Positions 12,161 to 27,160 of a stretch of 64,000 nucleotides of DNA are shown piece by piece. The notes under the pieces are model-generated. The model was not told where the DNA came from. It ran no database searches and saw only the letters and a program-made list of their open reading frames with translations. Position numbers and translations under genes: made by a program. This DNA comes from Candidatus Cloacimonadota bacterium (GTDB lineage: Bacteria; Cloacimonadota; Cloacimonadia; G963667145), in the NCBI GenBank assembly GCA_963667255.1, contig OY762940.1:1079503-1143502 (forward strand), written 5' to 3'. The first letter of the stretch is position 1. Each line of letters opens with the position of its first letter.

Positions 12161-12397
12161 AATCTTTACTCTCTTCGAGCAATGAAATTTTGTGTCAATG
12201 AAAATCTGTTTGATGAAATCTTCACTTTTAATTTGACAAAAAATTATTTAATTAAATTAATCGAGCATGTTTCCGAGTTCACTATCTCGTAGCGATTATC
12301 AGAACCGCCGAATACTGAACCGTTAGGGCATAATTGGAAACGATTATACCTCCCGCATTTGGAAAGGAAACAAAACCAAATTAGGGAGGATTTTAGT

Positions 12398-12880
12398 ATG
12401 TCCAAGAAAAAAGTGTTGCTTTTGCAACCTGAGAAATGTGTTGATTGTCACAATTGCCAATTGGCGTGTTCTCTCGCTCATGAGGGCGTTTTTAGCCCCA
12501 CCAAATCTTGTATTTCCGTTTTAGCTTCCAAATTAAAATTTTCTGTACCTCTCACATGTTTGCAATGTAAAGAACCGGCTTGTGCGACCGTTTGCACTAC
12601 TGGAGCTTTGAGCAAAAACCAAGAAACAGGCAGAGTTGACTACGACAAGAGCAAATGTATAGGTTGCAGATTGTGTGTAGCTGCTTGTCCTTTTGGCAAT
12701 ATTTCCTATTCTACCGATGCGGGTAAAGTTTACAAGTGTGATACTTGCGACGGCGATCCTTCATGTGCCAAAGTTTGCCCAACAGGAGCTATCTCTTGGG
12801 TTGATGAAAATGAAGAGACTTTGGAGAGGAAAAAAGTTATTTCGGAAAAGTTGCTTCAAGCTTTTGGGATGGAGGTGTAA
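12398..12880 (+). CDS. 4Fe-4S dicluster ferredoxin-type electron-transfer subunit
   Basis: Several CxxCxxCxxxCP motifs (CVDCHNCQLAC, CLQCKEPACATVC, CIGCRLCVAACP, CDTCDGDPSCAKVCP); RBS gggagg 8 nt upstream of ATG 12398; stop 1 nt before AOR start. Confidence 0.8.
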   Translation: MSKKKVLLLQPEKCVDCHNCQLACSLAHEGVFSPTKSCISVLASKLKFSVPLTCLQCKEPACATVCTTGALSKNQETGRVDYDKSKCIGCRLCVAACPFGNISYSTDAGKVYKCDTCDGDPSCAKVCPTGAISWVDENEETLERKKVISEKLLQAFGMEV

Positions 12881-12881
12881 G

Positions 12882-14699
12882 ATGAATGCATGGACAGGAA
12901 AAGTTTTAAGAGTTAATTTGACTAAAGGCTTGGTTGAAGTCGAAAAATTGAATTTCGATTTTGCCAAAAACTACATTGGCGGTAGAGGCTTGGGTGTCAG
13001 ATATTTTGTGAACGAAGTATCGCCCAAAGTTGATCCGCTTTCCGCAGAAAACAAACTGATTTTTGCTACTGGTCCGTTGACTGGATGTATGGGAGCTTCT
13101 ACGGGAAGATATGAGGTTGTGACTAAATCTCCTTTGACAGGAACTATTGCTGGTTCAAACTCGGGTGGACATTTCGGCCCAGAATTGAAATATGCTGGAT
13201 ACGATATGGTGATTTTCGAAGGCAAATCCCCCAAACCGGTTTATTTGAGTATTGATGATGACAAAGTTGAACTTCGCTCTGCTGAAGAACTTTGGGGGAA
13301 AGATGTCCCCACTACTACCGACACGATTGTGCAAGCTACTTCTCCAAGTGCCAAAGTTTGCTGTATAGGTCTTGCCGGAGAAAAAATGGCTTTGCTTGCT
13401 TGTATAATGAACGACAAGGACAGAGCTGCCGGAAGAACAGGTCTTGGTGCAGTGATGGGTTCTAAAAATCTCAAGGCTATTGCTGTGCACGGAACTGGCA
13501 ATGTAATTCCAGCAGATGCTAAAAAAGCCCTTGATGTGACTATTGATGTTATCGGGAAATTGAAGGCTCACCCCGTTGGTGGAACAGGTCTTCCTACTTA
13601 CGGGACCAACATTTTGGTCAATATCATCAATGAATCTGGTGGTTTCCCTACTCGCAACTTTACGGATGCTCAATTTGCAACCGCCAACAAAATTGGTGGA
13701 GAGTCTTTGGCGGATAAGCAATTGGTTAAGAAAAAATCTTGTTTCGGTTGTCCTATCTCTTGCGGTCGGGTTTGCAAGGTCACTAACGAAAAATATGCTG
13801 GATATGGTGAAGGACCTGAATACGAAAGTGCTTGGTCTTTCGGTGGAGAGTGCGGTGTTGACAATCTTGATGCCGTGGTTAAGGCGAATTTCATTTGTAA
13901 CGAGAATGGTTTGGATACGATTTCCATCGGTTCTACTATCGGTTGTTTGATGGAGATGTATGAAGCAGGTTTGGTAAAAAAAGAGGATATAGGCTTTGAA
14001 ATCGGTTTTGGCGATGAAGAAGCTATGGTTAAATTGGTAAGTATGGCAGCTAATTTGGAAGGAATTGGGAAATTGATTGCCCAAGGTTCTTACAGATTGT
14101 CCGAAAAATTTGGCGACACCAGTTATTCAATGAGTGTGAAAAAACTTGAAATGCCGGCTTACGACCCCCGAGCTATTCAAGGTATAGGTTTAAACTATGC
14201 CACTTCGAATAACGGTGCCGCCCATGTTAGAGGCTACACTATCTCTCCTGAGGTTTTGGGTGTGCCACAAAAAATCGACCAATTTACCACCGAAGCCAAA
14301 GAGGTTTGGGTAAAAGGTTTCCAAGATTTGACTGCTTGTATAGATTCTTCAGGAATTTGCTTGTTCACTACTTTTGGTCTTGGAGCTCCTGAGATTGCCG
14401 ATCAACTTGCTGCCAATACCGGCTTGGATTACACAGCCGACAGTATCGTGGCTATCGGAGAGAGAATACACAACTTGGAGAGATTGTTCAATCTCAAGGC
14501 TGGGATTACTCCTGCTGATGATACTCTTCCCAAGAGAATGTTCGAGTTGCCGGTGATAACAGGACCAGCCAAAGGCAATACCAGTAAAGTAAAGGAAATG
14601 CTTCCTGCTTATTATAAATTACGAGGTTGGGGGAATGATGGTATTCCTTCCAAAGATAAATTGAAAGAATTGGAGTTATCAGAAATTAAATTTCTCTAA
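12882..14699 (+). CDS. aor: Aldehyde:ferredoxin oxidoreductase family (tungsten-cofactor type) catalytic subunit
   Basis: N-terminal MNAWTGKVLRVNLTKG...GGRGLG typical AOR start, about 605 aa, pterin/4Fe-4S binding Cys pattern (CFGCPISCGR). Confidence 0.85.
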   Translation: MNAWTGKVLRVNLTKGLVEVEKLNFDFAKNYIGGRGLGVRYFVNEVSPKVDPLSAENKLIFATGPLTGCMGASTGRYEVVTKSPLTGTIAGSNSGGHFGPELKYAGYDMVIFEGKSPKPVYLSIDDDKVELRSAEELWGKDVPTTTDTIVQATSPSAKVCCIGLAGEKMALLACIMNDKDRAAGRTGLGAVMGSKNLKAIAVHGTGNVIPADAKKALDVTIDVIGKLKAHPVGGTGLPTYGTNILVNIINESGGFPTRNFTDAQFATANKIGGESLADKQLVKKKSCFGCPISCGRVCKVTNEKYAGYGEGPEYESAWSFGGECGVDNLDAVVKANFICNENGLDTISIGSTIGCLMEMYEAGLVKKEDIGFEIGFGDEEAMVKLVSMAANLEGIGKLIAQGSYRLSEKFGDTSYSMSVKKLEMPAYDPRAIQGIGLNYATSNNGAAHVRGYTISPEVLGVPQKIDQFTTEAKEVWVKGFQDLTACIDSSGICLFTTFGLGAPEIADQLAANTGLDYTADSIVAIGERIHNLERLFNLKAGITPADDTLPKRMFELPVITGPAKGNTSKVKEMLPAYYKLRGWGNDGIPSKDKLKELELSEIKFL

Positions 14700-14708
14700 T
14701 TGATTTGA

Positions 14709-14750
14709 GACGGAGCTCTGTATTAATTGCAGAGTTCCGTTTTCTTTATT
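14709..14750 (+). terminator. Hairpin plus T-tract downstream of aor (possible terminator/attenuator before nuoE-like gene)
   Basis: gacggagctctg...cagagttccgt imperfect inverted repeat followed by tttctttatt. Confidence 0.4.
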
Positions 14751-14773
14751 AAAAAAAGCTAAAGGATTTTTAA

Positions 14774-15226
14774 ATGGATGAAATATTATCTCGGTATAAA
14801 AAACCTTCCGATGTGATTGCGGTTCTGCAAGATACACAAGAAAAATTTTCTTATCTTTCCGAAGAAAATTTACGAAAAATCAGCCAACACTACCAAATTT
14901 CTTATGCTTATTTGCATTCCATAGTAACCTTTTACAAAGCTTTTTCGTTGGTGAAAAAGGGCAAAAATGTTATTAGGGTGTGTGATGGCACGGCTTGTCA
15001 TATAAAAGGTTCGGTCAAAATTTTGGAAGAACTTCACCGATTGCTGGGCATTAATCCTGGGCAGACAACTGCCGATGAAATGTTTTCCGTGGAAACTGTA
15101 GCTTGCCTTGGTGTGTGTGCGATTGCTCCGGTTATGCTGATAAACGACAAATATTACGGAAATTTGCAAATGGGAGAAATCAGCGGAATAGTTGAAAGCT
15201 ATAAAAAGCAGGAGTCGGAAAAATGA
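14774..15226 (+). CDS. NuoE/HoxE-like [2Fe-2S] thioredoxin-like subunit
   Basis: CDGTACH ... CLGVCAIAPV cysteine motif of NuoE family; overlaps downstream gene by ATGA. Confidence 0.8.
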   Translation: MDEILSRYKKPSDVIAVLQDTQEKFSYLSEENLRKISQHYQISYAYLHSIVTFYKAFSLVKKGKNVIRVCDGTACHIKGSVKILEELHRLLGINPGQTTADEMFSVETVACLGVCAIAPVMLINDKYYGNLQMGEISGIVESYKKQESEK

Positions 15227-16995
15227 AAACTATTTATGTATGTTACGGAACAGGTTGCAAAGCCGGTGGTGGTGGTCCTATATCCGATAAATTTGCTGCT
15301 TTGTGCCGAGATAACGAAGTGCGGGTAAAGAGAACCGGTTGCCACGGTTTGTGCCAAGAAGGTCCCTTGGTTCACATCTCTCCCGACGAGATAACTTACA
15401 CCAAAGTCAAAGTGGAAGATGTTCAGGAGATTGTTGAAAAAACGATTAGGAATAACGAGGTTGTCGAGAGATTGCTTTACATCGACAAGGCTCAAAAAAA
15501 ACGGGTAAAATCCAAAAATGATTGGTCTTTTTGTAGCAAGCAAAAACGAGTTGTTTTAAAAGAAGTGGGCGAGATTGACCCTCAAAAAATAGAAGACTAT
15601 TTGCAAGCTGGTGGCTACAAGGCACTCAAAAAAGCTTTGGAAATTGGTAGTCAACAGATTTTGCAAGAAGTAAACGATTCCGGTTTGCGAGGTAGAGGTG
15701 GTGGAGGTTTCCATACCGGTAGGAAGTGGAACTCTGTTGCTAAAGCCACAGGTGAACAAAAATTCGTTTTGTGCAACGGAGACGAGGGCGACCCGGGTGC
15801 TTTTATGGACAGGAGCATCATGGAGGGTAATCCTCATTTGGTTTTGGAAGGAATGGCTATCGCAGCTGTCGCCGTGGGAGCGAGTAGAGGCTATGTGTAT
15901 GTGCGAAACGAATATCCTATGGCAGTTGAGCATCTGCAAATGGCTATCGATAGTGCCGAGGGAAAAGGGTATTTGGGACAGAATATTTTGGGTAGCGGTT
16001 TCAATCTGAAAATCGAAATTAAGCGAGGTGCCGGTGCTTTTGTTTGTGGAGAGTCTTCGGCTCTGATGCGGTCAATTGAGGGTAAAATCGGTCAGCCCAA
16101 CGAAAAGCACATTCATGCTTCGGACAAAGGTGTGTTTGAAAGCCCAACACTTCTGAACAATGTGGAGACTTATGCCAATGTTCCTACCATAATTTTGGGT
16201 GGAGGAAAAGCTTATGCAGCAACTGGAACGAAAAAATCCCCGGGAACAAAAGTCTTTTCACTGGTCGGCAAAGTGGTAAACACTGGTCTGATAGAAGTGG
16301 AAATGGGTGTGAGCTTGCGAGAAATTATTTTTGATATCGGAGGTGGTATAAAAAACGGCAGAAAGTTCAAGGCGGTGCAAACAGGCGGTCCTTCAGGCGG
16401 TTGCCTTACCGCTGACCATCTTGATGTGAAAATCGACTTTGACACACTCATCGAATACGGCTCAATGATGGGCTCAGGTGGAATGATTATCATGGACGAG
16501 TTTGACTGTATGGTGGAGGTTGCTCGCTATTTCACGGGATTTCTCATTGAAGAGTCTTGTGGCAGATGCACTCCATGCAGAGACGGACTTTTGCAGGTTT
16601 ACAAAATTTTGGACAGGATTAGCAAAGGCGAAGGCAAAATGGAAGATTTGGACACTTTGGAAGAGTTCGGACAATACTTGGAATCTTCGGCCTTGTGTGG
16701 CTTGGGCAAATCCGCAGCCAATCCTTTTTTATCAACTTTAAAATATTTCCGCCACGAATTTGTGGAACACATTGAACAAAAATTTTGCCGAGCCGGAGTT
16801 TGTAAGGAACTTTCGACTTTTGTAATTGACGAAGAAAAGTGCAAGAGTTGCGGAATGTGTGCCAAGGTTTGTTCGTTTGGAGCAATCCAAGTTGACGGCA
16901 AAAAATACAGCATCGACCAGTCAAAATGTATGAAATGCAGGGCTTGTTTGGAAGCTTGTAAATTCGGAGCTGTGAGCATAGCAGGGAGGCAATAA
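15223..16995 (+). CDS. NuoF-like NAD(H)-binding flavoprotein subunit with extra N-terminal 2Fe-2S and C-terminal 2x[4Fe-4S] domains
   Basis: GLRGRGGGGFHTGRKW FMN/NADH motif, ESCGRCTPCRDG 4Fe-4S motif, C-terminal CKSCGMCAKVC / CMKCRACLEACKFGA. Confidence 0.85.
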   Translation: MKTIYVCYGTGCKAGGGGPISDKFAALCRDNEVRVKRTGCHGLCQEGPLVHISPDEITYTKVKVEDVQEIVEKTIRNNEVVERLLYIDKAQKKRVKSKNDWSFCSKQKRVVLKEVGEIDPQKIEDYLQAGGYKALKKALEIGSQQILQEVNDSGLRGRGGGGFHTGRKWNSVAKATGEQKFVLCNGDEGDPGAFMDRSIMEGNPHLVLEGMAIAAVAVGASRGYVYVRNEYPMAVEHLQMAIDSAEGKGYLGQNILGSGFNLKIEIKRGAGAFVCGESSALMRSIEGKIGQPNEKHIHASDKGVFESPTLLNNVETYANVPTIILGGGKAYAATGTKKSPGTKVFSLVGKVVNTGLIEVEMGVSLREIIFDIGGGIKNGRKFKAVQTGGPSGGCLTADHLDVKIDFDTLIEYGSMMGSGGMIIMDEFDCMVEVARYFTGFLIEESCGRCTPCRDGLLQVYKILDRISKGEGKMEDLDTLEEFGQYLESSALCGLGKSAANPFLSTLKYFRHEFVEHIEQKFCRAGVCKELSTFVIDEEKCKSCGMCAKVCSFGAIQVDGKKYSIDQSKCMKCRACLEACKFGAVSIAGRQ

Positions 16996-17741
16996 TGAAA
17001 ATTTTTATAAACGACAAAGAATGTTCCGCTTGCAAAGGGCAAACTTTATTGCAAGTTGCTCTGGATAACGGCTTTTATATCCCGACTTTGTGCCACAATA
17101 AAGAGCTTGGAAACTATGCGGGCTGTAGATTGTGTGTGGCTGAACTTCGCGAGGGAGATTGGAGCAAGTTGGTCGCTTCCTGTGAGTTTCCGGTCAAAGA
17201 TGGACAAACTTTTTATTTGGATACAGAGAATGTTAAGAAATCGCGAGATTTGTCGGCAAGTCTGCTTTTGGCAAGGTCTCCGGAGTCCAAAAAAGTTTTA
17301 GATGAGATTATGCGAAAAGATGTGGAGATGAGATTTGAGCCGATGACACCGCATTTGGAAGGTTGTATTCTTTGCGGAAAGTGTTATAGGGCTTGTCAAA
17401 AATTGGGAACGGGAGCAATTTCCACCATCAATAGAGGTCACGAAATCACCGTGGAAACTCCGTATGAACAAGGGAATCCCGATTGTATTGGCTGTCTTGC
17501 TTGTGCCGAGGCTTGTCCTACAGGTGCGATTAAGGTTTTCAGGTCGAAAACTCAAGTTGGTATTTGGCATCTTACTCACGAATTGCTTGCTTGTCCGATG
17601 TGTGGCAAGAGACATATCACGCAAAAATCTTTGGATTTCTTTAGTAAAAAAACAGGAATCCCAAGCGAAGAATTGATTATTTGTCCCGATTGTCGCCAGA
17701 AAAAAACCTCAATGGATCTTCTGTCAGGAATTTCCAGATGA
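16995..17741 (+). CDS. NuoG N-terminal-like / HydA-N-like 2Fe-2S plus 4Fe-4S ferredoxin subunit
   Basis: Plant-type 2Fe-2S pattern (CHNKELGNYAGCRLCVAE), His-ligated cluster region, CIGCLACAEACPTGA. Confidence 0.6.
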   Translation: MKIFINDKECSACKGQTLLQVALDNGFYIPTLCHNKELGNYAGCRLCVAELREGDWSKLVASCEFPVKDGQTFYLDTENVKKSRDLSASLLLARSPESKKVLDEIMRKDVEMRFEPMTPHLEGCILCGKCYRACQKLGTGAISTINRGHEITVETPYEQGNPDCIGCLACAEACPTGAIKVFRSKTQVGIWHLTHELLACPMCGKRHITQKSLDFFSKKTGIPSEELIICPDCRQKKTSMDLLSGISR

Positions 17742-17962
17742 GTATAACCCTCAAACTTTTTGCATATTTCAGGGATAATAGAGGCGAAGTTTTGCAAATA
17801 GAATTCAGCGAAGGAATGCGACCTTCGGACTTGTGTAAGAAAATAAAGCTCGATTTAGACGAAGTCTCCATTCTTTTGGTAAATGGTGTCTATACCAAAG
17901 AAGACCCGATACTTAAAGATGGAGATTTGGTTTCTATGTTCCCCGCTGTTGGTGGCGGTTAG
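17738..17962 (+). CDS. moaD: MoaD/ThiS-family sulfur carrier protein
   Basis: About 74 aa ending in diglycine (AVGGG); ATG overlaps upstream stop (ATGA). Confidence 0.6.
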   Translation: MSITLKLFAYFRDNRGEVLQIEFSEGMRPSDLCKKIKLDLDEVSILLVNGVYTKEDPILKDGDLVSMFPAVGGG

Positions 17963-18762: not shown

Positions 18763-19938
18763 TTGGGGGTCAGGTCAATGAATAGAAAAATCGCTTTGGA
18801 AATTTTATTGCAAAAAGTTTCCGCTTTAAATTCTTTTAAAATTAATGTCTCAAAAAGCGAAAATTGTGTTCTTGCTTCTCCCGTTTTTTCTCAAATAGAT
18901 TTACCTTCTTTTGATAAATCCGCCATGGACGGCTTTGCCATTTGTGAAGATGAAACTCAAGAAACTTTGCAAGTGGTTGATTTTACAGCTGCTGGCGAAT
19001 CTCCTTCCTCAAAACTTAGCAAAGGGAAAGCGGTTAAAATTTTGACTGGAGCACCTGTTCCTAAAAATGCTTGGAAAATTATTCCCAAAGAATTGGTTAG
19101 TGAAAATGAGAATACTATTGTTCTTAATTGTCAGCTTAAGGAAGCTCCAAACAATATTTGCTCAAAAGGCGAGGATATCCCCCAAGGGCAACTTTTGTAT
19201 CCCAAGGGGACTTTGATTGATATCCGAAAAAAAGCGACTTTGGTTTTTGCAGGAGTAAATGAGGTTGAGGTTTTTTCCAAGCCGAGAATATCGGTGATTA
19301 CCACAGGAAGCGAGGTAGTTTCCTTTGGCGATAAAAGAGGCAAATACCAAGTTTATAATGCCAATGCAGAGTTGCTTTTCGGACTTTTAAATAAAGAGTT
19401 GGACACGGCAGATTTTTCGCATGTTGCCGACGAATACTCTTTGGTGGAAGCGGAATTTAATCAAAAATTTGAGAAGTCCGATTTGTTGATTTTTACCGGT
19501 GGAGCTTCCGTAGGCAAATTTGATTATGTGAAAAAAATGCTGAAATCTTTGGGAGCGGAGGAACTTTTTTCTGGTTTGTCCATCAGACCCGCACGACCTA
19601 CAGCTTGCTATTTGTTTAAGGGCAAATTGATTTTTTCGCTTCCGGGTAATCCTGTGGCGGTTTTTTTGGCTTACCATTTGTTTGTTTTGCCTGTGATTTA
19701 CAAAATGCAGTCCAAAGTTTGTAATTTATTTAGAGAAGTAGAAATTACTGGAAAATTACAAGTTAGATTAAAAGACAGAGAAAATTTTGTTCCGATAAAA
19801 TATAATGACAAAAAAATCGAAATTCTTGATTATAACGGACCTGCGGATTTATATCATATCTCACTTGCAGATGGGTTTTTAGTCGTTCCGCCGGAAACAA
19901 AAATTGTAGAAGGCAAAGCGAAAGTTTTGCTCTTTTAA
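18763..19938 (+). CDS. moeA: MoeA-family molybdopterin molybdenum/tungsten transferase
   Basis: SAMDGFAI motif and GGASVGKFDY / SLPGNP MoeA-type motifs; start may be the ATG at 18778. Confidence 0.75.
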   Translation: MGVRSMNRKIALEILLQKVSALNSFKINVSKSENCVLASPVFSQIDLPSFDKSAMDGFAICEDETQETLQVVDFTAAGESPSSKLSKGKAVKILTGAPVPKNAWKIIPKELVSENENTIVLNCQLKEAPNNICSKGEDIPQGQLLYPKGTLIDIRKKATLVFAGVNEVEVFSKPRISVITTGSEVVSFGDKRGKYQVYNANAELLFGLLNKELDTADFSHVADEYSLVEAEFNQKFEKSDLLIFTGGASVGKFDYVKKMLKSLGAEELFSGLSIRPARPTACYLFKGKLIFSLPGNPVAVFLAYHLFVLPVIYKMQSKVCNLFREVEITGKLQVRLKDRENFVPIKYNDKKIEILDYNGPADLYHISLADGFLVVPPETKIVEGKAKVLLF

Positions 19939-19962: not shown

Positions 19963-20910
19963 ATGATTATGTTCAAAAAATTGAAATTAGTGGCTTTGAT
20001 TTGCATTTTTGCTTTTTCGTCTCTTTTGGCTAAAGAAAGTAAGTTGGTAATTTTCCATGCGGGGAGTTTGGCTATTCCTTTGCAAAAAATGAGCGAGGCT
20101 TTTAACGAGAAGTATCCAGATGTGCAAATAATGAGAGAAGCAGCCGGTTCTCGTGTATGTGCAAGAAAAATCAGTGAGTTGAATAAAAAAGCCGATATTA
20201 TGTTTTCTGCTGATTATACGGTAATTGATGAACTTTTGATTCCTAAGTTTGCCGATTGGAACATTCATTTTGTAACCAACGAAATGGCTATTATGTTTGG
20301 TCATAATGCAAAATATGCCGATGAGATTACTGTTGAAAATTGGCCTGAAATTTTACTTCGCAAAGATGTAACTTACGGACATTCAGACCCTAATGCTGAC
20401 CCATGTGGCTATAGAAGTCAACTTGTTTGGCAATTGGCTGAAAAGTATTACAAATTACCTGGTTTGTATGAAAAATTGAGAGAAAACAATCCTATCGTGA
20501 GACCAAAAGAGACTGACTTGGTGGCTTTGTTGGAAGCCGGAACTCTTAACTATTTGTTTATCTATCGTTCTGTTGCTCAGCAACATGGAGCTAAATATTT
20601 GGTATTGCCTGATGAAATAAATTTGAAGACTGCCAAATTTGCTGATTTTTACAAACAAGCTACTTTTGATATTAGCGGCAAAAAGCCTGGGGAGTTCATT
20701 ACCAAAAAAGGTGCTCCAATGGTTTATGGATTGACTATTCCTAACAATGCGGTAAACAAAAAAATGGCTGAAAAGTTTGTAGCTTTTGTTTTGAGTGAAG
20801 AGGGAAGAAAAATTATGGAAGATTGTGGTCAACCTGCTATCGTTCCGGCAAAGATTACCGGCAAAGAAAAATCACTTCCTTCTTCTATAAAAAAATTTGT
20901 AAAAGAGTAA
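19963..20910 (+). CDS. Tungstate/molybdate ABC transporter substrate-binding protein (WtpA/ModA-like)
   Basis: Signal peptide, periplasmic binding protein pattern similar to WtpA; adjacent permease and TOBE-domain ATPase. Confidence 0.6.
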   Translation: MIMFKKLKLVALICIFAFSSLLAKESKLVIFHAGSLAIPLQKMSEAFNEKYPDVQIMREAAGSRVCARKISELNKKADIMFSADYTVIDELLIPKFADWNIHFVTNEMAIMFGHNAKYADEITVENWPEILLRKDVTYGHSDPNADPCGYRSQLVWQLAEKYYKLPGLYEKLRENNPIVRPKETDLVALLEAGTLNYLFIYRSVAQQHGAKYLVLPDEINLKTAKFADFYKQATFDISGKKPGEFITKKGAPMVYGLTIPNNAVNKKMAEKFVAFVLSEEGRKIMEDCGQPAIVPAKITGKEKSLPSSIKKFVKE

Positions 20911-20925
20911 AAACAGGAAAATCAA

Positions 20926-21696
20926 GTGAAAAAAGTTTTTATTGCTTTGGGTGCGATAATCATCTTTATGATTGTTTTTCCGATTATAAAGATTTTTTGG
21001 GGAATTGACCTTACTATTCTTAGCGATACTTTGAGAGATTCTGTGGTTTTTTCGGCAGTTTTTACTTCTTTGGAATGTTCGCTCTATGCCACACTTGCAG
21101 GATTTCTTCTGGGAATTCCGCTTGCTTACATTATCGCCAGACACAATTTTTATGGTAAAGAACTGGTTTCTTCAATTATAAATATCCCTATCGTCGTGCC
21201 ACATTCGGCGGCAGGGATAGCTCTTTTGTCGGCTTTTGCTTCTCATACTTTTTTGGGGAAAGGGCTTGCCGCACTTGGACTTACCATCATCGATACCAAG
21301 CTTGGTATAAGTTTGGGGATGTTTTTTTTGAGTGTGCCTTTTCTCATCAATCAAAGTATTGGGGGGTTTCTAAGCTATGACGAGAGAATAGAAAAATCTG
21401 CTAGAGTTTTAGGAGCTGGTTTTAGCAGAACTTTTTTTACCATCAGTTTGCCACTTGCTCGGCACGGCATCATCAAAGGTTTCATCATGATGTGGGCAAG
21501 AGGTATTTCGGAGTTCGGAGCTGTGGTCATTTTGGCTTATCATCCGCTTACAGCTTCCGTTTTGATTTTTGAAAGATTTGGAGCTTTCGGCTTGAGATAT
21601 TCCAAGCCGATTGCTTCTTTATTAATTTTAATCTGCCTGTTCATTTTTATGGTAGTGCAATTGATTTCCAATGTTAAAAATAAATCAGATAACTAA
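20926..21696 (+). CDS. ABC transporter permease (WtpB/ModB-like)
   Basis: Polytopic membrane protein with EAA-like loop region typical of ABC importer permeases. Confidence 0.7.
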   Translation: MKKVFIALGAIIIFMIVFPIIKIFWGIDLTILSDTLRDSVVFSAVFTSLECSLYATLAGFLLGIPLAYIIARHNFYGKELVSSIINIPIVVPHSAAGIALLSAFASHTFLGKGLAALGLTIIDTKLGISLGMFFLSVPFLINQSIGGFLSYDERIEKSARVLGAGFSRTFFTISLPLARHGIIKGFIMMWARGISEFGAVVILAYHPLTASVLIFERFGAFGLRYSKPIASLLILICLFIFMVVQLISNVKNKSDN

Positions 21697-22699
21697 AAAA
21701 TTTTCCCAATTTACTCTAAACGAGATAAATTTTACCATTAATAAGGGCGAATGCACCGCAATTTTGGGTCCGTCAGGTTCGGGCAAAACTATTTTGATGG
21801 AGACGATTGTCGGCATTCACAAGCAAACTTCGGGGCAACTATTCCTAAACGGCAAAGAGATTAGCCATACCAAGCCCGAAAATCGCGATATTTCGCTTTT
21901 GTATCAAAATTATATGCTTTTCCCACATCTCAATGTTTACGAAAATATAGCTTTCCCGCTAAAATTACGAAAAATTCCTGAAATTCCGCAAAAGATAAGC
22001 AAAATTGCTCATTTATTGAAGATTGAACATCTTTTGAAAAGGTCGGTTCATAACCTTTCTGGTGGAGAAAAACAGCGGGTCGCTCTTGCCAGAGCCATTA
22101 TTTTTGAACCGCAAGTTCTTCTTTTGGACGAGCCAACTTCGGCGATTGACACTCATATGAAGCGAAAAGTTCGCAAGCTAATTCGGGAAATTCACAAAAG
22201 TCTCAATCTGACTATTCTCTTGGTCACTCATTCCATTGAGGAGGCTATCTATTTGGCGGATTCTTTTGTCTTCCTAAAAGATGGTCAGCAATTACAACAA
22301 GGCAAAAAGTTTGAAGTTTTCAACAATCCCCAAAATCGTTATATCGCCAATTTTCTCGGCTATGACAATGTTTTTGAAGGAGAGGTTGAAGACGGCAAAT
22401 TTGCTATCAAAAACACCAATCTCAAAATATCTTTTTTTAAAGAAGAGATTCCCAAGTGTATTCATGTTTCGCCCGACAATATCATCATTTCCAAGGAAAA
22501 GCCCGAGAGTTCGGCAGTGAATGTTTTTGAAGGAACATTGCAAGATTTTGCTTTCAAAGGCAGTTTCTATCAATTGTTTTTCGACATCGGAGTGGAAATT
22601 TTGGTAAATATCACAGATGCCTCATTCGAAAATCTCCAACCAAAACTCGGCACCAAATTTTATCTATCATTCAAAGAAAGAGGAGTGAAGGGGTTTTAG
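21671..22699 (+). CDS. ABC transporter ATP-binding protein with C-terminal TOBE-like domain (WtpC/ModC-like)
   Basis: Walker A GPSGSGKT, signature LSGGEKQR, Walker B LLLDEPTSAID, about 110 aa C-terminal extension. Confidence 0.75.
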   Translation: MLKINQITKKFSQFTLNEINFTINKGECTAILGPSGSGKTILMETIVGIHKQTSGQLFLNGKEISHTKPENRDISLLYQNYMLFPHLNVYENIAFPLKLRKIPEIPQKISKIAHLLKIEHLLKRSVHNLSGGEKQRVALARAIIFEPQVLLLDEPTSAIDTHMKRKVRKLIREIHKSLNLTILLVTHSIEEAIYLADSFVFLKDGQQLQQGKKFEVFNNPQNRYIANFLGYDNVFEGEVEDGKFAIKNTNLKISFFKEEIPKCIHVSPDNIIISKEKPESSAVNVFEGTLQDFAFKGSFYQLFFDIGVEILVNITDASFENLQPKLGTKFYLSFKERGVKGF

Positions 22700-22763: not shown

Positions 22764-23450
22764 ATGCCAATAAGAAACAAGTACGTAAAAAACTCCAAAA
22801 TTTCTGAAGAAAAATTTAGAGAAATAATTAAGTTTTTTTCTTTGGATATTGAGGCTAGTAAAATAGCACTTTTGACCAAAATTAGTAGAAAAACAGTTAA
22901 CAATTATTTACTTAAAATTAGAGAGAGAATTGCTGAATTTTGTTGTGAGGATTCTCATCTTTCTGGAATAATTGAAGTTGATGAATCTTACTTTGGAGCG
23001 AAAAGAGTTAAGGGGAAACGAGGACGAGGTGCTGGAGGTAAAATTAAAGTTTTCTGATTGCTCAAAAGAGGCGACAAAGTTTACACTCAAATGGTTGATA
23101 ATTGTAGCAGAAAGACATTACAAGCGATAATAAAAGAAAGGATAGAAAAGGGTAGTGAAATTCACTCTGATGGATGGAAAGCTTATAATGGATTGGTTGA
23201 TTTAGGATACCAAAAACACTATAGAGTTGACCATTCGAGCAATGAATTTGCCAATAAAAATGGACATATTAATGGGATTGAGAACTTTTGGGGAATAGCA
23301 AAATTGAGACTAACAAAATTTAAAGGAATTCATAAAAATATGTTCTATTTACACTTAAAAGAATGTGAATTTAGGTTTAATCATAGAAAGCAAAATTTAT
23401 ATAAAATTTTGCTAAAAATGTTCCGAAATAATCCGCTCAAGTTATCTTGA
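22764..23450 (+). pseudogene. IS1595-family (ISXO2-like) DDE transposase interrupted by a single in-frame TGA (23055-23057) at a conserved Gly position
   Basis: Translations ...IIEVDESYFGAKRVKGKRGRGAGGKIKVF*LLKRGDKVYTQ...SEIHSDGWKAYNGL...HYRVDHS...NGIENFWG... match the family pattern ETYFGGKRKGKRGRGA-GK-VFG-LER-G-V; stop replaces the G of VFG. Confidence 0.7.
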
Positions 23451-23453
23451 ACC
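23437..23453. repeat. IS right terminal inverted repeat
   Basis: Reverse complement equals GGTTCAAGATAACTTGA. Confidence 0.8.
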
Positions 23454-23461
23454 TAATTTAA
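23454..23461. repeat. Target-site duplication (right copy) TAATTTAA
   Basis: Identical to 22709-22716. Confidence 0.65.
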
Positions 23462-23471
23462 ATATTTTGAA

Positions 23472-23500
23472 TTGACAGATTTTAATTTAAAGTGTTTATA
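23472..23500 (+). promoter_or_regulatory. Sigma70-like promoter candidate for the HerA-NurA-MTase operon
   Basis: TTGACA, 17-nt spacer ending in TG, then TTTATA; about 37 nt upstream of the ATG at 23538, with gagg RBS in between. Confidence 0.3.
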
Positions 23501-23537
23501 GGTATTTGTTTTTTCCAAAATTTTAATTGAGGTTTAG

Positions 23538-25781
23538 ATGAGTATAGAACAAAGTATAATTTCTAGGCGAGAAAGTGATAAGAAAGTTGAAACCCAACAA
23601 TGGTTTCAAAAACTTATACAAACAAGCGAATATGTTGGTGATTTGTATTCTATCAACTATGAAACCGCAAGAGTAATAATTCATGATTTCTATAGAGAGA
23701 AAGTCGGAGGAATTCCAAGCTTAAGTTTTTTAATTGCCTCAAGAGTTGACCCCAATAATTCAGAAATTGATTTTAAAACAGAGGATGCATCATTTATTCT
23801 TTTAAGAGTAATGGATGCTATAGCGCTTCCGCAGGATAGAGAGGCAGAAAGAATTAGAGTTGAAACAGCACAAAGAATAAGTGGTGAAACTGAAAAAAAT
23901 TGGGATGAAGCAGGTTCAATGGATTTAAGAACAAAAAATCTGTTAAGTTTTGCTGGTGTTCAGTGCAGAATAATTGGAACATTTTATCTCGAAGAAAATG
24001 GAGAAAATGGAGAAGCACCACTTAATTTAAAATTTGGTAGTGATATTTCAAATTATTATCCAAACAGAGGATTAAAAGTTTATAAACCAAACGGGAAGGC
24101 TCTTGAGTTAATAGTAAATTATTCTGATCCTTCAAATATTCAAGCACACATTGAAAAATATGGAAACACAGAAAATGTAAAATTGGGTTTTGTAAGATAT
24201 GCTTCAACAAATAGAAAATATCAACAAATTAGTGATGTCCCTGTTTATATTTATCCAGCAGACCTTCTATCTCAAAAATCTGCCTTGTTTGGAATGACAA
24301 GGACAGGAAAATCCAATACGACTAAAATAATTGCAAAATCTGTTTTTGAATTACGAAATGCACAACGGTCTGGAGAAAATCCATTAAGAATTGGACAAAT
24401 AATTTTTGATCCCAACGGTGAATATGCCAATGAAAATGTTCAAGATAGGGACGGTAGCGGTAATCCAAATGCATTAAAAAATATTTGGCGAAAAGACGAA
24501 ACTTTAAGAAATATTGCTGATAAGCTGAAACAACAATATATTCAAGAAACAGAAATCGAAGAAAAGAAAAGATTATGGAATGAAATAAAATCATTGGTTG
24601 AAACAGAGGTGGTTACATATGGTATTTTACCACATCCACTAGACCCATTTCGTAGATTAATGAAAATAAACTTTTATGAAGAAGACAATCTTCAAATAGG
24701 TAAAGAAATCATTGATTTTAAAATTGCGGAGCAGTCAGCTCAGTATATTAAAAATTTTCGACAAGTTGTTTTCAAAAGACCAGTAGAAGATGAATACGAG
24801 AATGAGGTTGAATTTAATGGACAATTAAGGCGTTTTGAGAGAAGAGTTCTTGTTTATTGTGCATTGCTAAATAAAGCAGGTTTTAATCCACCGTTTCGAA
24901 CAGTTAATATTTCAAGAATGTTTAATGCTGACCTAAGAAATGCTATGATTAACTATTCTGAAAAAAAATTTACACGTAAACAAGGATTAATAAATGCAGC
25001 GGGTCAAACTCTGTCACAAACAAATGTAACCTGGGATAGTCTTGCACCTGCTTTTGAAGGTTTGTTCCATTTCCTTTCAACTGCTGATTACAATACATTC
25101 AACCAAGATTACATAAATAATCATCGTGATGATGAGAATGAGGATGCTACAGGAGAAGGTTGGGCTGAAGCAGAACTTGAAAGTTTGTTGGAAATGTTTA
25201 ATTATTCAAAAGCTATTAATCTAATTGGTGGTGTAAATACACAACATACAACATCAATAAGAACAGATTACGCCGAAGATATTTATAATGATTTAACTGA
25301 AGGGAAACTTGTTATTATTGACCAATCAAGTGGTGAGCCAGAACTAAACAAGTCTTCAGCAAATAGAATAATGTGGCATATTTTTAAAGCTAACCAAAGT
25401 GCATTTCGAGAGGGTGAGAAATTAATTCCCGAAATATTGGTTTATGTGGAGGAAGCTCATAATATATTACCAGCTGGTAATGATTTAGATTTAACCGATG
25501 TTTGGGTTAGGACAGCAAAGGAAGGTTCAAAATATAGAATTGGGATGGTTTACGCAACCCAAGAAGTAAGTAGTATTCAAAGAAATATTTTAAAAAATAC
25601 AGCGAATTGGTTTATAAGCCATTTAAACAATACTGATGAAACCAAAGAACTATGCAAGTACTATGATTTTGAAGACTTTGAGCCATCAATAAGGCGAGCA
25701 CAGGATAAGGGTTTTTTAAGAGTTAAAACTTTAAGCAATCTGTTTGTAATTCCAGTTCAGGTTGACAAATTTGAAGTCTAA
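23538..25781 (+). CDS. HerA/DUF87-like (FtsK-HerA superfamily) ATPase with about 250-aa N-terminal domain of unknown type
   Basis: Walker A GMTRTGKS (about aa 252), Walker B of hhhh-EEAH type ILVYVEEAH (about aa 637), downstream ATQ motif RIGMVYATQEV typical of HerA-family ATPases. Confidence 0.6.
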   Translation: MSIEQSIISRRESDKKVETQQWFQKLIQTSEYVGDLYSINYETARVIIHDFYREKVGGIPSLSFLIASRVDPNNSEIDFKTEDASFILLRVMDAIALPQDREAERIRVETAQRISGETEKNWDEAGSMDLRTKNLLSFAGVQCRIIGTFYLEENGENGEAPLNLKFGSDISNYYPNRGLKVYKPNGKALELIVNYSDPSNIQAHIEKYGNTENVKLGFVRYASTNRKYQQISDVPVYIYPADLLSQKSALFGMTRTGKSNTTKIIAKSVFELRNAQRSGENPLRIGQIIFDPNGEYANENVQDRDGSGNPNALKNIWRKDETLRNIADKLKQQYIQETEIEEKKRLWNEIKSLVETEVVTYGILPHPLDPFRRLMKINFYEEDNLQIGKEIIDFKIAEQSAQYIKNFRQVVFKRPVEDEYENEVEFNGQLRRFERRVLVYCALLNKAGFNPPFRTVNISRMFNADLRNAMINYSEKKFTRKQGLINAAGQTLSQTNVTWDSLAPAFEGLFHFLSTADYNTFNQDYINNHRDDENEDATGEGWAEAELESLLEMFNYSKAINLIGGVNTQHTTSIRTDYAEDIYNDLTEGKLVIIDQSSGEPELNKSSANRIMWHIFKANQSAFREGEKLIPEILVYVEEAHNILPAGNDLDLTDVWVRTAKEGSKYRIGMVYATQEVSSIQRNILKNTANWFISHLNNTDETKELCKYYDFEDFEPSIRRAQDKGFLRVKTLSNLFVIPVQVDKFEV

Positions 25782-25792
25782 ATTGAGTTAAT

Positions 25793-27160
25793 ATGGGGTT
25801 TGAAGGAGAATTTGCCAGTTATGAGCCATTAAGGCGAATGCTTGATAGTGATAAAGTTAAATCACTACAAGACAGACTGAAAATACGAAAACAAGAAGAA
25901 GAAACAGATACTTTCACTGGCTCAATTGTTAAAAAGTCAGACTTGACTGAAAGCTCAATACAACCTGATTTAGTTTTAGCAATTGATGGAAGCAATTTGG
26001 CGGCTAAAGCTGAAAGTGGATTTCCGGGTGCTGAATTTGGATATATTACAATAGCTTCTGTTTTAATAGATTTAAAACTTATTGATGATTTAGAAAAGAA
26101 ACAGTTTATTGACCCCAAAAAGGTTAGAGAAACAGAAAAAGCATCGACAATAGAAAGTGTCTTCCCCGGTTGCAATGTAATTTTGGACACAGAAAAAAAT
26201 GCAAATGCTTCACTTCGAAGAGCATTATTTGAAGAATTAAAATGTAACACAATATTTGCTAACGGTGGAGAAACATTATTGGATACTTATGAATACCTCT
26301 TCAGAATAAAGAGAGAGCATTTCTCTGAAAGCCGTCTTCCAAGAAGCCCTATTGATGGTATTGATAAAGAAATGACTTATGGATACGATGAATATCCTTG
26401 TCCTCATTCAGGAGAGCCATTATATTCAACTGATGCTTTGCGTTTACATGAATTAATGAATCCTGGTGGTAGTAATGGTGAAATGTTTGGGCAAATAATG
26501 TCAACTCTTGAAAAGGTATGGTTGGTTCATATACTCAGAGCATTTGAACAAAAAGAATGGTTATCAACCCTTCGGAGAGTAGCATTTATTATGGATGGAC
26601 CATTAGCTGTATTTAGTACTTCATCTTGGTTGACAAAAGTTATTAATTATGAATTAAATAGGCTAAATGAATTGCAGAAAGCAGTTAACGGTCAGGATTT
26701 ATTAATTATCGGTATTGAAAAATCAGGAACATTCGTAAATCATTTCGAAGAAATTGATACGACTAAAGATGGAGTTACAGATAAATTTCCAAAACAATCA
26801 GCATTACTGCTTGACGATGGCTATATAAAAAGAAATATTATTTTTTCTGAAAGCATAAAACCATATGGTCAAGACACTTATTTTGGAAGAAAAATATTTT
26901 ATAAAACTGCTTCTGGACAAAAAATAGTTCCAGTAATTGCATGTTATAATGACCAACAAAGAAATACCTCAACAGCAAATCCAAATCAATTTTCAAGGCT
27001 TTCAGATGTTATGAATTTGCTTGATAAATTGGTTTCAAGTAGATATCCAAATTCCGTTTCTCCTTTAGTATCTGCTCATGCAGAAGCAGCAATTCCTTTA
27101 AATTTAGGTAAACGGATATTTGAGGATATTGCAAGAGAAATAAGAGAAAAATCAAATTGA
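25793..27160 (+). CDS. NurA-like nuclease
   Basis: N-terminal LVLAIDGS motif, central IIGIEKSG motif, C-terminal His (SAHAEAA) consistent with NurA D-E-D-H layout; 11-nt gap to upstream gene. Confidence 0.5.
   Translation: MGFEGEFASYEPLRRMLDSDKVKSLQDRLKIRKQEEETDTFTGSIVKKSDLTESSIQPDLVLAIDGSNLAAKAESGFPGAEFGYITIASVLIDLKLIDDLEKKQFIDPKKVRETEKASTIESVFPGCNVILDTEKNANASLRRALFEELKCNTIFANGGETLLDTYEYLFRIKREHFSESRLPRSPIDGIDKEMTYGYDEYPCPHSGEPLYSTDALRLHELMNPGGSNGEMFGQIMSTLEKVWLVHILRAFEQKEWLSTLRRVAFIMDGPLAVFSTSSWLTKVINYELNRLNELQKAVNGQDLLIIGIEKSGTFVNHFEEIDTTKDGVTDKFPKQSALLLDDGYIKRNIIFSESIKPYGQDTYFGRKIFYKTASGQKIVPVIACYNDQQRNTSTANPNQFSRLSDVMNLLDKLVSSRYPNSVSPLVSAHAEAAIPLNLGKRIFEDIAREIREKSN

What the first reader, a model, noticed from the sequence alone, without database searches (positions are those of the whole stretch)
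12398..17741. Tungsten-type aldehyde oxidoreductase clustered with NuoE/NuoF/NuoG-like subunits: candidate NAD(H)-linked or electron-bifurcating AOR complex
Polyferredoxin and AOR catalytic subunit are followed by a NuoE-like 2Fe-2S protein, a NuoF-like NADH/FMN flavoprotein with extra cluster domains, and a NuoG-N-like ferredoxin, then by cofactor biosynthesis and tungstate uptake genes. NuoEF-like modules are the NAD(H) entry point of known flavin-based electron-bifurcating enzymes. The arrangement suggests aldehyde oxidation (or acid reduction) coupled to both ferredoxin and NAD(H). A hairpin plus T-tract at 14709-14750 may partially uncouple expression of the two halves.
Basis: partly seen in the sequence, partly recalled or inferred. 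Interest (0 to 1): 0.55.

Follow-up and report, generated by a model that had tools for sequence, protein, structure and literature searches.

The report
Electron-bifurcating tungsten aldehyde oxidoreductase operon

Summary
Window 12398-17741 encodes a four-cluster polyferredoxin (WorS), an AOR-family tungstoenzyme (WorL), and NuoE-, NuoF- and NuoG-N-like proteins (WorC, WorB, WorA). A 16-bp hairpin with a T-tract lies between worL and worC.

All five proteins have their best solved-structure match in one entry, 9MQX. That entry is the Acetomicrobium mobile WorABC(SL)3 complex, which couples aldehyde oxidation to simultaneous NAD+ and ferredoxin reduction. Every metal-ligating cysteine aligned to 9MQX is conserved. 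WorA lacks the A3 cluster domain and carries the WorA-specific zinc finger and C-terminal helix. The gene order is the published "type 1" worSLCBA.

- a P3-less Moco/Tuco riboswitch (12259-12385) whose core can sequester the worS ribosome-binding site
- a ThiS-like worX (17738-17962)

Two modest additions came out of this work. A stable stem-loop follows worL in all 11 type-1 loci examined across several phyla, which makes it a candidate device for the published 3:1 SL:ABC ratio. A sister species has deleted worC, worB and most of worA.

Verdict: new member of a known kind, low to moderate interest.

The parts
12259..12385 (+). Moco/Tuco riboswitch aptamer, P3-less (tungsten-cofactor type). 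Its core CCUCCC (12349-12354) can pair with the worS Shine-Dalgarno GGGAGG (12384-12389).
   Evidence: RF01055 scores 56.5 bits against a gathering score of 36, and the P3 hairpin positions are deleted. The RBS-sequestering helix appears in the MFE fold here and in L002, L003 and L005. The same family sits upstream of worS in L002, L003, L005 and L009.
12398..12880 (+). worS: polyferredoxin with four [4Fe-4S] clusters and a 26-residue C-terminal tail
   Evidence: Fer4_7 and Fer4_11 hits. Best PDB hit is 9mqx_E, 139 bits, 45% identity, with 16 of 16 ligand Cys conserved. The tail is absent from the Por-Bfu WorS-like protein.
12882..14699 (+). worL: tungstopterin aldehyde oxidoreductase catalytic subunit (AOR family)
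   Evidence: AFOR_N and AFOR_C hits. Best PDB hit is 9mqx_D at 775 bits, against 652 for 1AOR and 633 for AorB 8C0Z. T242, E315, Y427 and H448 align with PfAOR T243, E313, Y427 and H448. Cys287/290/294/493 are the cluster ligands.
14707..14753 (+). Intra-operon stem-loop (16 bp, 14707-14743) plus U-rich tail: candidate leaky terminator or transcript stabiliser between worL and worC
   Evidence: dG -24.9, z -5.0. The sequence is unique in the window. A hairpin at the same position, with a different sequence, occurs in 10 other type-1 loci.
14774..15226 (+). worC (BfuC): NuoE/HydC-like [2Fe-2S] subunit
   Evidence: 2Fe-2S_thioredx hit, E 6e-46. Best PDB hit is 9mqx_C, 139 bits. Cys70/75/111/115 are conserved.
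15223..16995 (+). worB (BfuB): NuoF/HydB-like FMN/NAD(H) subunit with an N-terminal [2Fe-2S] and two C-terminal [4Fe-4S] clusters
   Evidence: Complex1_51K, NADH_4Fe-4S and Fer4 x2 hits. Best PDB hit is 9mqx_B at 712 bits, followed by bifurcating HydB and NfnB chains. The 18 Cys assigned to B5, B1, the Zn site, B3 and B4 are all conserved; 21 of the 25 Cys in the aligned 9MQX chain are conserved overall.
16995..17741 (+). worA (short BfuA): [2Fe-2S] plus two [4Fe-4S] clusters, no His-ligated cluster domain, C-terminal zinc finger and docking helix
   Evidence: Fer2_4 and Fer4_7 hits, with no PF10588. Best PDB hit is 9mqx_A. All 16 Cys are invariant in 19 homologues. The AF2 model has pLDDT 85 and a helix at 231-247. 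Foldseek top hit is 9mqx_A, TM 0.79 over 244 columns.
17738..17962 (+). worX: ThiS/MoaD-like 74-aa protein ending in GGG (pterin cofactor processing)
   Evidence: ThiS family hit, 38.2 bits against a cut-off of 22.5. It overlaps the worA stop by 4 nt. It holds the same position in L001, L003 and L009. WorX is defined as ThiS-like in PMC13328260.
17976..18626 (-). mobB-like gene (convergent)
   Evidence: MobB Pfam hit and TIGR00176 at 92.3 bits against a cut-off of 76.2.
18763..19938 (+). moeA (metal insertion into the pterin)
   Evidence: MoeA_N and MoCF_biosynth hits.
19963..22699 (+). wtpABC tungstate ABC transporter (wtpA 19963-20910, wtpB 20926-21696, wtpC 21671-22699)
   Evidence: The NCBIfam WtpA equivalog scores 390.9 against a cut-off of 355. 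WtpB and WtpC are the best-scoring families but fall below their cut-offs.

Best explanation
Window 12259-17962 is one operon, riboswitch-worS-worL-(hairpin)-worC-worB-worA-worX. It encodes a Class IV (BF-type, clade-87-like) tungsten-containing oxidoreductase, the orthologue of A. mobile WorABC(SL)3 and E. limosum WOR1.

Mechanism (by homology, inferred here):
- WorL oxidises aldehydes to acids at a W-bis-pyranopterin site.
- Electrons pass through its [4Fe-4S] cluster into the four clusters of WorS.
- WorS units chain up through their C-terminal helices into a wire.
- The wire docks on the zinc-finger and helix tail of WorA.
- Electrons then run through A4, A2 and A1 to the WorBC core.
- There an FMN-centred bifurcation reduces NAD+ and ferredoxin together.

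This coupling lets very low aldehyde concentrations be oxidised against high acid concentrations. In an amino-acid-fermenting Cloacimonadota bacterium the substrates are probably aldehydes derived from 2-oxoacids (inference).

Regulation (inferred from sequence): a P3-less Tuco riboswitch frees the worS ribosome-binding site only when the tungsten cofactor is present. The conserved stem-loop after worL lowers worCBA-X expression relative to worSL, which would match the 3:1 subunit ratio. The adjacent worX, mobB, moeA and wtpABC genes supply cofactor and tungstate.
For: - Domain content.
- All five subunits have their top PDB hit in the single entry 9MQX. Identities are 57% (L), 54% (B), 35% (A), 44% (C) and 45% (S).
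- Every cluster or Zn cysteine is conserved. These cover the [4Fe-4S] of L, S1-S4, A1/A2/A4 and the zinc finger, B1/B3/B4/B5 and the two Zn-site Cys, and C1.
- The catalytic residues T/E/Y/H of PfAOR are conserved.
- WorA lacks PF10588, the His-ligated A3 domain. Its model matches 9mqx_A end to end, including the C-terminal helix.
- The order SLCBA with worX is the published type 1 operon (PMC13328260).
- The same order recurs in Cloacimonadota, a 'Porphyromonadaceae' MAG, Sediminispirochaeta/Spirochaetaceae, Ca. Moduliflexus and a Caloramator-like contig. A Synergistaceae contig has CBASL.
- The riboswitch passes its gathering score and lacks P3. The E. limosum wor1 operon has the same element, also read as translational (PMC11725836).
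- Hairpin. No sigma-70-like site lies on the + strand between worS and position 15482, which is inside worB. The gap from the hairpin to the worC ATG is only 30 nt.
- Biochemistry and structure of the family: PMC9304861, PMC12318220, PMC11725836.
Against: - Nothing in the sequence contradicts the assignment, but no activity, metal content or transcript data exist for this organism.
- WorA is only 35% identical to the A. mobile protein. Its C-terminal helix residues differ, so the 3:1 assembly is not assured.
- The spirochaete hairpins lack a U-tract, so termination is not the only possible role of the stem-loop.
- The sister genome L002 keeps worSL, the hairpin and the riboswitch without worCB. 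WorSL may therefore also work alone with ferredoxin.
- The promoter scan covers only sigma-70-type consensus, and Cloacimonadota promoters are not characterised.
Confidence: 0.88

Rival explanations
1. There are two independent enzymes. WorSL would be an ordinary ferredoxin-dependent AOR that ends at a true terminator. WorCBA would be a separate NADH:ferredoxin-type module serving another partner.
For: A strong terminator-like hairpin separates the halves. The sister genome L002 retains worSL without worC, worB or most of worA.
Against: - WorA carries the zinc finger and C-terminal helix that dock WorS in 9MQX.
- No other catalytic partner gene is adjacent.
- The SL and CBA linkage is kept across several phyla and in both gene orders.
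- Only 30 nt separate the hairpin from the worC start, and no promoter-like site was found there.
Confidence: 0.05
2. The complex is a non-bifurcating NAD+-linked AOR. The flavoprotein would simply pass aldehyde electrons to NAD+, as AorABC does, without obligatory ferredoxin reduction.
For: NAD-linked nanowire AORs exist (AorABC, 8C0Z). WorS and WorL also match the AorA and AorB chains well, at 129 and 633 bits.
Against: - AorC is an unrelated FAD protein, and no such gene is present.
- WorB has the N-terminal [2Fe-2S], the Zn site and the two C-terminal [4Fe-4S] clusters. These distinguish bifurcating BfuB from non-bifurcating NuoF homologues (PMC9304861).
- The closest structural relatives of WorB are all bifurcating enzymes.
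Confidence: 0.05
3. The enzyme works mainly in reverse. It would reduce carboxylic acids to aldehydes, using NADH and reduced ferredoxin together, for alcohol formation.
For: AORs of some acetogens reduce acids (general knowledge). Bfu enzymes are described as reversible (PMC9304861). Class IV WORs in Methanofollis are linked to alcohol metabolism (PMC13328260).
Against: - The acid/aldehyde couple (about -560 mV; PMC9304861, Table 1) lies well below the mean potential of NADH and reduced ferredoxin. Confurcation is therefore less favourable than ferredoxin alone (inference).
- No alcohol dehydrogenase gene is in the window.
Confidence: 0.07
4. The stem-loop after worL is not an attenuating terminator. 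It would be a 3'-end stabiliser that protects a processed worSL transcript segment from exonucleases, or a fortuitous structure.
For: The spirochaete versions are GC-rich hairpins without U-tracts. In the type 2 locus L048, GC-rich hairpins lie both between worA and worS and after worL.
Against: - The Cloacimonadota, L004 and L005 versions have U-rich tails typical of intrinsic terminators.
- Position is conserved while sequence diverges in 11 of 11 type-1 loci, which argues against chance.
- Either mechanism gives the same outcome of more SL than CBA.
Confidence: 0.3

Closest known systems
Acetomicrobium mobile WorABC(SL)3 (AmWOR1; PDB 9MQX; Schut 2021, Feng 2025 PMC12318220)
   Same: It has the same five subunit types and the same cofactor ligands. 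WorA has the same truncation (no A3 or A5 cluster), zinc finger and C-terminal helix. WorS has a C-terminal tail. It is the best PDB hit for all five proteins.
   Different: - The gene order is CBASL (type 2) in A. mobile and SLCBA-X (type 1) here.
- The phylum is Synergistota there and Cloacimonadota here.
- Identity is only 35-57%.
- A. mobile is a thermophile, whereas this genome has 39% GC and an unknown habitat.
- The residues of the docking helices differ.
Eubacterium limosum WOR1 (wor1SLXABC; PMC11725836)
   Same: It is a type 1 operon with S and L first. A P3-less Tuco riboswitch overlaps the RBS. worX is in the operon. SL is expressed about 3-fold above the rest.
   Different: worX lies between L and C in E. 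limosum and after A here. The transporter is TupABC there and WtpABC here. I could not fetch the E. limosum DNA to check for an L-X hairpin.
Aromatoleum aromaticum AorABC (Class III / N-type WOR; PDB 8C0Z)
   Same: The catalytic subunit is homologous (633 bits) and so is the nanowire polyferredoxin (129 bits). Both are linked to NAD.
   Different: Its NAD module is a single FAD protein, AorC, and it does not bifurcate. Here the module is a NuoEFG-like BfuCBA trio.
Bifurcating hydrogenases and transhydrogenases of the Bfu family (HydABC, NiFe-HydABCSL, NfnABC)
   Same: The BfuB and BfuC core has identical cluster content. WorB scores 617-691 bits against HydB and NfnB chains.
   Different: Their BfuA carries a hydrogenase or NADP domain and A3/A5 clusters. 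Here BfuA is a 248-aa adaptor.
Pyrococcus furiosus AOR (Class I; PDB 1AOR)
   Same: The fold and catalytic residues are the same, and the match is 652 bits.
   Different: It is a homodimer of the large subunit only, uses ferredoxin only, and has no S, A, B or C partners.

Membership tests
Class IV WOR / Wor-Bfu (WorABCSL) | WorL: AOR-family large subunit with tungstopterin-contact residues (PfAOR T243, E313, Y427, H448) and four Cys for one [4Fe-4S] cluster | tested here: met
   AFOR_N and AFOR_C hits. T242, E315, Y427 and H448 align. Cys287/290/294/493 are conserved.
Class IV WOR / Wor-Bfu (WorABCSL) | WorS: four [4Fe-4S] clusters | tested here: met
   16 of 16 ligand Cys are conserved against 9mqx_E.
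Class IV WOR / Wor-Bfu (WorABCSL) | WorS C-terminal alpha-helix that builds the nanowire | tested here: inconclusive
   A 26-residue tail (VDENEETLERKKVISEKLLQAFGMEV) follows the last cluster motif and aligns to the 9mqx_E tail up to residue 151. The tail is absent from the Por-Bfu homologue. The helix and assembly were not modelled.
Class IV WOR / Wor-Bfu (WorABCSL) | BfuB core: FMN/NAD(H) site, B1 [4Fe-4S], Zn (B2) site, C-terminal B3 and B4 [4Fe-4S], N-terminal B5 [2Fe-2S] | tested here: met
   Domain hits. Cys 7/12/40/44, 446/449/452/492, 522/527, 540/543/546/550 and 569/572/575/579 are conserved against 9mqx_B. The assignment of each Cys group to a named cluster follows the domain layout described in PMC12318220 and was not read from coordinates.
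Class IV WOR / Wor-Bfu (WorABCSL) | BfuC with the C1 [2Fe-2S] cluster | tested here: met
   Cys70/75/111/115 are conserved.
Class IV WOR / Wor-Bfu (WorABCSL) | Type 2 BfuA: A1, A2 and A4 present, A3 and A5 absent, C-terminal zinc finger and adaptor helix | tested here: met
   No PF10588 hit and no HxxxCxxCxxxxxC motif. Sixteen Cys are invariant (4+8+4). The model has a helix at 231-247 and matches 9mqx_A over its full length, TM 0.79.
Class IV WOR / Wor-Bfu (WorABCSL) | Operon worSLCBA (type 1) or worCBASL (type 2), with worX variably present | tested here: met
   The order is S-L-C-B-A-X with overlapping or abutting genes except at the L-C gap. Definition from PMC13328260.
Class IV WOR / Wor-Bfu (WorABCSL) | Aldehyde oxidation obligatorily coupled to simultaneous NAD+ and ferredoxin reduction | not testable with these tools
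   This needs enzyme assays. It has been shown only for A. mobile, and for partially purified E. limosum enzyme (PMC9304861, PMC11725836).
Class IV WOR / Wor-Bfu (WorABCSL) | Tungsten (not molybdenum) in the cofactor | not testable with these tools
   The evidence is indirect only: an adjacent WtpA equivalog above its cut-off and a P3-less riboswitch.
Class III WOR (AorABC, N-type) | [quoted passage not shown] | tested here: not met
   No such gene is present. The flavoprotein is NuoF-type, with NuoE- and NuoG-like partners.
BamB-I benzoyl-CoA reductase (Class IV, clades 62/63) | BamB-type large subunit, three-cluster BamC and HdrA-like BamDE subunits | tested here: not met
   WorL scores only 217 bits against BamB 4Z3W, compared with 775 bits against 9mqx_D. 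WorS has four clusters. No Hdr-like genes lie in 8-23 kb.
Respiratory complex I NuoEFG | Full-length NuoG with a molybdopterin-like domain, NuoF without extra clusters, and membrane-arm genes | tested here: not met
   WorA is 248 aa and matches only the NuoG N-terminus. WorB has extra N- and C-terminal cluster domains. No nuoA-N genes are in the window.
Moco/Tuco riboswitch (RF01055), tungsten-cofactor subtype | A match above the gathering score; P3 stem absent in the Tuco subtype | tested here: met
   The score is 56.5 bits against 36. The P3 positions of the model are deleted. The subtype criterion comes from PMC2408646 and PMC11725836.

The most novel reading that the evidence does not exclude
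The stem-loop placed immediately after worL would be a conserved, sequence-independent device, either a leaky terminator or a transcript-end stabiliser. It would set the 3:1 WorSL:WorABC subunit ratio in type-1 operons across phyla. This would supply the mechanism for the unexplained 3-fold expression step reported in E. limosum.

In addition, the sister-species allele keeps only a 71-aa zinc-finger and helix remnant of WorA behind that hairpin. This would show that the WorSL wire can be evolutionarily unplugged from bifurcation and run as a ferredoxin-only enzyme, perhaps capped by the remnant peptide.
Probability: 0.4. Interest if true: 0.45.

Novelty: new member of a known kind. Interest (0 to 1): 0.28.

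Why it matters
For enzymology it adds little, because the class is already purified, solved and classified.

It does correct how Cloacimonadota metabolism is read. Surveys of the phylum count this gene simply as "aldehyde ferredoxin oxidoreductase", a marker of amino-acid fermentation (bioRxiv 10.1101/2021.10.08.463351). In this lineage it is predicted to deliver both NADH and reduced ferredoxin and to depend on tungsten. Both points matter for redox balances in syntrophic digesters.

The conserved hairpin gives a directly testable mechanism for stoichiometric expression of a 3:1 complex. The natural plug-deletion allele is a ready-made comparison for what bifurcation contributes.

Tried and rejected
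- Exact look-up of the window's WorL in the contig index found nothing. The organism was identified instead from the genome-contig scan: Cloacimonadota, with closest relatives at 90% and 82% identity.
- The word-indexed search with WorA returned only 53 proteins and missed A. mobile and E. limosum. I therefore could not fetch the E. limosum locus to test for a hairpin at its L-X junction.
- WorA-like hits at 38-39% identity turned out to be Por-Bfu clusters, not WORs.
- A search with the 71-aa L002 remnant found only itself. There is thus no evidence that mini-WorA is a family.
- The idea that the hairpin is a repeated extragenic element was rejected, since there is a single copy in 64 kb.
- An internal promoter for worC was not supported by the sigma-70 scan. 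That scan is not validated for this phylum.
- AorABC, BamB-type and complex I readings were rejected on defining features (see the membership test).
- The rest of the window holds no aldehyde-producing or alcohol-related genes that would pin down the substrate.
- I did not build a formal WorL phylogeny. Placement rests on bit scores against solved structures and on synteny.


Full report
**What is there**

On the + strand, 12398-17741 holds five tightly packed genes. Pfam and NCBIfam give the following:
- 12398-12880: a 160-aa polyferredoxin.
- 12882-14699: a 605-aa AOR-family protein (AFOR_N E 8e-82, AFOR_C E 7e-146).
- 14774-15226: a NuoE-type thioredoxin-like [2Fe-2S] protein.
- 15223-16995: a 590-aa NuoF-type flavoprotein with an extra N-terminal 2Fe-2S domain and two C-terminal Fer4 domains.
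- 16995-17741: a 248-aa protein with a NuoG-N-like 2Fe-2S domain and a 2x[4Fe-4S] domain.

Downstream lie MobB (minus strand), MoeA and WtpABC. WtpA scores above its equivalog cut-off. The S-L junction is 1 nt, and the C-B and B-A junctions overlap or abut. Only the L-C junction has a spacer, of 74 nt. That spacer holds a 16-bp stem-loop (14707-14743) followed by CTTTATT. Its energy is -24.9 kcal/mol, z = -5.0, and no shuffle folds as well.

Rfam places a Moco/Tuco riboswitch at 12259-12385 (56.5 bits against a gathering score of 36), directly upstream of worS. The alignment shows the P3 hairpin of the model deleted. Absence of P3 is the published mark of the tungsten-cofactor subtype (PMC2408646, PMC11725836).

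In the unconstrained fold, the aptamer core CCUCCC (12349-12354) pairs with the worS Shine-Dalgarno GGGAGG (12384-12389). The same helix forms in three relatives. This is the RBS-sequestor arrangement described for the E. limosum wor1 operon. The reading as a translational ON switch is my inference.

A 74-aa ThiS-family ORF ending in GGG (17738-17962) overlaps the worA stop. It corresponds to WorX, the "ThiS-like" cofactor-processing protein of WOR operons (PMC13328260).

**What it is**

Each of the five proteins has its best solved-structure match in the same entry, 9MQX:

| Window protein | 9MQX chain | Bits |
|---|---|---|
| WorL | D | 775 |
| WorB | B | 712 |
| WorA | A | 127.5 |
| WorC | C | 139 |
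| WorS | E | 139 |

9MQX is the cryo-EM structure of the A. mobile WorABC(SL)3 complex, an electron-bifurcating tungsten aldehyde oxidoreductase (PMC12318220). Identities are 57% (L), 54% (B), 35% (A), 44% (C) and 45% (S). Every cysteine that can be assigned to a cluster or zinc site is conserved:
- WorL: 4 Cys.
- WorS: 16 Cys.
- WorC: 4 Cys.
- WorB: 4 (N-terminal [2Fe-2S]), 4 (B1), 2 (Zn site) and 8 (B3/B4).
- WorA: 4 (A1), 8 (A2/A4) and 4 (zinc finger).

The PfAOR pterin-site residues T243, E313, Y427 and H448 align with T242, E315, Y427 and H448.

WorA lacks the His-ligated cluster domain (no PF10588). That absence defines "type 2" Bfu enzymes (PMC9304861). Its 16 Cys are invariant in 19 homologues. 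An AlphaFold model (pLDDT 85) ends in a helix at 231-247. Its best Foldseek match is 9mqx_A over 244 columns, TM 0.79. Other BfuA and NuoG chains match only the N-terminal part.

The gene order S-L-C-B-A with worX at the end is the published "type 1" Class IV operon (PMC13328260). WorB's extra clusters distinguish bifurcating BfuB from non-bifurcating NuoF homologues (PMC9304861). Its next-best structural relatives are bifurcating HydB, NiFe-HydB and NfnB.

**How it most likely works**

The steps below are taken from the characterised orthologues and are inferred for this locus.
1. WorL oxidises aldehydes.
2. Electrons travel L2, S1, S2 and then along S3/S4 of chained WorS units.
3. They enter WorA at A4 and pass A2 and A1 to B1 and the FMN of WorB.
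4. Bifurcation there reduces NAD+ and, through C1 and B3/B4, ferredoxin. Neither acceptor is reduced without the other in the A. mobile enzyme.

The proposed benefit is oxidation of trace aldehydes against high acid concentrations (PMC9304861, PMC12318220).

**Host and likely substrates**

The host is a Candidatus Cloacimonadota bacterium. The closest genomes are OY762943.1 (90% WorL identity) and OY781061.1 and OZ223280.1 (82%), all about 1.55 Mb. Cloacimonadota are regarded as amino-acid fermenters, and AOR is counted as a marker of that lifestyle. The phylum survey I read makes no mention of tungsten or bifurcation. Aldehydes derived from 2-oxoacids are therefore the likely substrates (inference). 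The rest of the window is housekeeping and gives no further clue.

**The hairpin**

I checked the junction after worL in every type-1 locus I could obtain. A stable stem-loop sits there in all 11:

| Locus | Lineage or note | z-score |
|---|---|---|
| window | Cloacimonadota | -5.0 |
| L002 | 90% relative | -3.9 |
| L003 | 82% relative | -4.7 |
| L009 | 82% relative | -5.6 |
| L004 | textbook terminator GAGGGTTTC-N7-GAAACCCTC-TTTATTT | -4.1 |
| L005 | 'Porphyromonadaceae' MAG | -6.5 |
| L006 | Sediminispirochaeta | -2.3 |
| L007 | Sediminispirochaeta | -3.4 |
| L008 | Spirochaetaceae | -3.4 |
| L046 | Ca. Moduliflexus | -5.8 |
| L047 | Caloramator-like, L-X junction | -4.8 |

L001 is the same contig as L009 and is not counted separately. 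The sequences are unrelated between lineages, so it is the position and the structure that are kept. U-rich tails follow the stem in the Cloacimonadota-type loci but not in the spirochaete ones.

In the window the hairpin is a single-copy sequence. No sigma-70-like site lies between it and worC.

Two published facts make this meaningful. In E. limosum, wor1S and wor1L are expressed about 3-fold above worXABC "for unknown reasons" (PMC11725836). The complex contains three SL per ABC (PMC12318220). Neither paper, in the text I searched, names a cis element for this step. A leaky terminator or a 3'-end stabiliser after worL would produce that ratio.

**A natural variant**

In the 90%-identical relative (L002), the riboswitch, worS, worL, the hairpin and the worC ribosome-binding site are all present. 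The stretch equivalent to window ~14788-17588 is missing. What remains is an intact 71-aa ORF. It fuses the worC start to the last ~54 residues of WorA, namely the zinc finger and the C-terminal helix, and is followed by worX.

More distant relatives keep CBA, so this is a deletion in that lineage. The peptide has no other match in the protein database. It shows that the SL module can persist without the bifurcating plug.

**Comparison and verdict**

The locus meets every sequence-testable defining feature of Class IV WOR / Wor-Bfu. It fails those of AorABC (no AorC), of BamB-type reductases, and of complex I.

It differs from A. mobile in gene order, phylum and tungstate transporter. It differs from E. 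limosum in the position of worX and in using Wtp instead of Tup.

It is a new member of a known kind. The text I read names Synergistetes, Firmicutes and Methanofollis as hosts for this class (PMC9304861, PMC13328260). The main text of PMC13328260 does not mention Cloacimonadota or spirochaetes. I did not check its supplementary tables, so the taxonomic extension is probable but not certain. Interest is low to moderate.

Noticed in passing
L002:9819-10114 (OY762943.1, Cloacimonadota; equivalent to window 14700-17741): The sister species has deleted worC, worB and the Fe-S part of worA. A 71-aa in-frame ORF remains, behind the conserved hairpin and worC RBS. It consists of the worC start fused to the WorA zinc finger and C-terminal docking helix. 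The ORF is unique in the protein database.
   Followed up: yes
L043:2071-8182, L044, L042, L045: WorA-like proteins at 38-39% identity sit in Por-Bfu clusters (porD-A-B-G, bfuC-B-A). Each cluster is followed by a 137-aa polyferredoxin 38% identical to WorS but lacking its C-terminal tail. PMC12318220 states that Por-Bfu lacks a WorS homologue, so this may be a variant worth a look.
   Followed up: partly
window 22764-28287: A low-GC (about 0.33) island lies directly after wtpC. It holds an IS1595-family transposase fragment, a HerA-like DUF87 ATPase (747 aa), a NurA-domain nuclease (455 aa) and an N6/N4 DNA methylase. It is possibly a defence or mobile island.
   Followed up: partly
window 28325-28987 (-): A ThiF-family protein lies about 10 kb from worX. 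It could be the adenylating partner of the ThiS-like WorX, since worX and thiF are adjacent in Cetobacterium somerae (PMC13328260).
   Followed up: no
L001/L009: 2539-3630, 6238-7341, 13844-14953: In the 82% relative, three copies of an HTH_28/rve-type transposase gene flank and interrupt the wor-mob-moe cluster. One copy lies immediately upstream of the riboswitch.
   Followed up: no
L002:16027-16091: A hammerhead type II ribozyme match (RF02276, 41.3 bits against a gathering score of 37) lies downstream of the wtp genes in the sister genome.
   Followed up: no
L006:7126-7260, L007:6830-6966 (-), L008:884-1016 (-): In the spirochaete Class IV loci the Moco/Tuco riboswitch is not in front of worS. 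It lies on neighbouring genes, divergent or downstream, so riboswitch control of the enzyme genes themselves is lineage-specific.
   Followed up: partly
window 62830-63251, 38214-38400, 31451-31540, 31959-32035: The window also contains RNase P RNA (class A, 210 bits), 6S RNA (55 bits), tRNA-Ser(GGA) and tRNA-Arg(ACG).
   Followed up: no
window 53384-55387 (-) and 29135-31449 (+): There is a 667-aa fusion of dephospho-CoA kinase, type I dehydroquinase and shikimate dehydrogenase domains. There are also two tandem phosphofructokinase-family genes.
   Followed up: no
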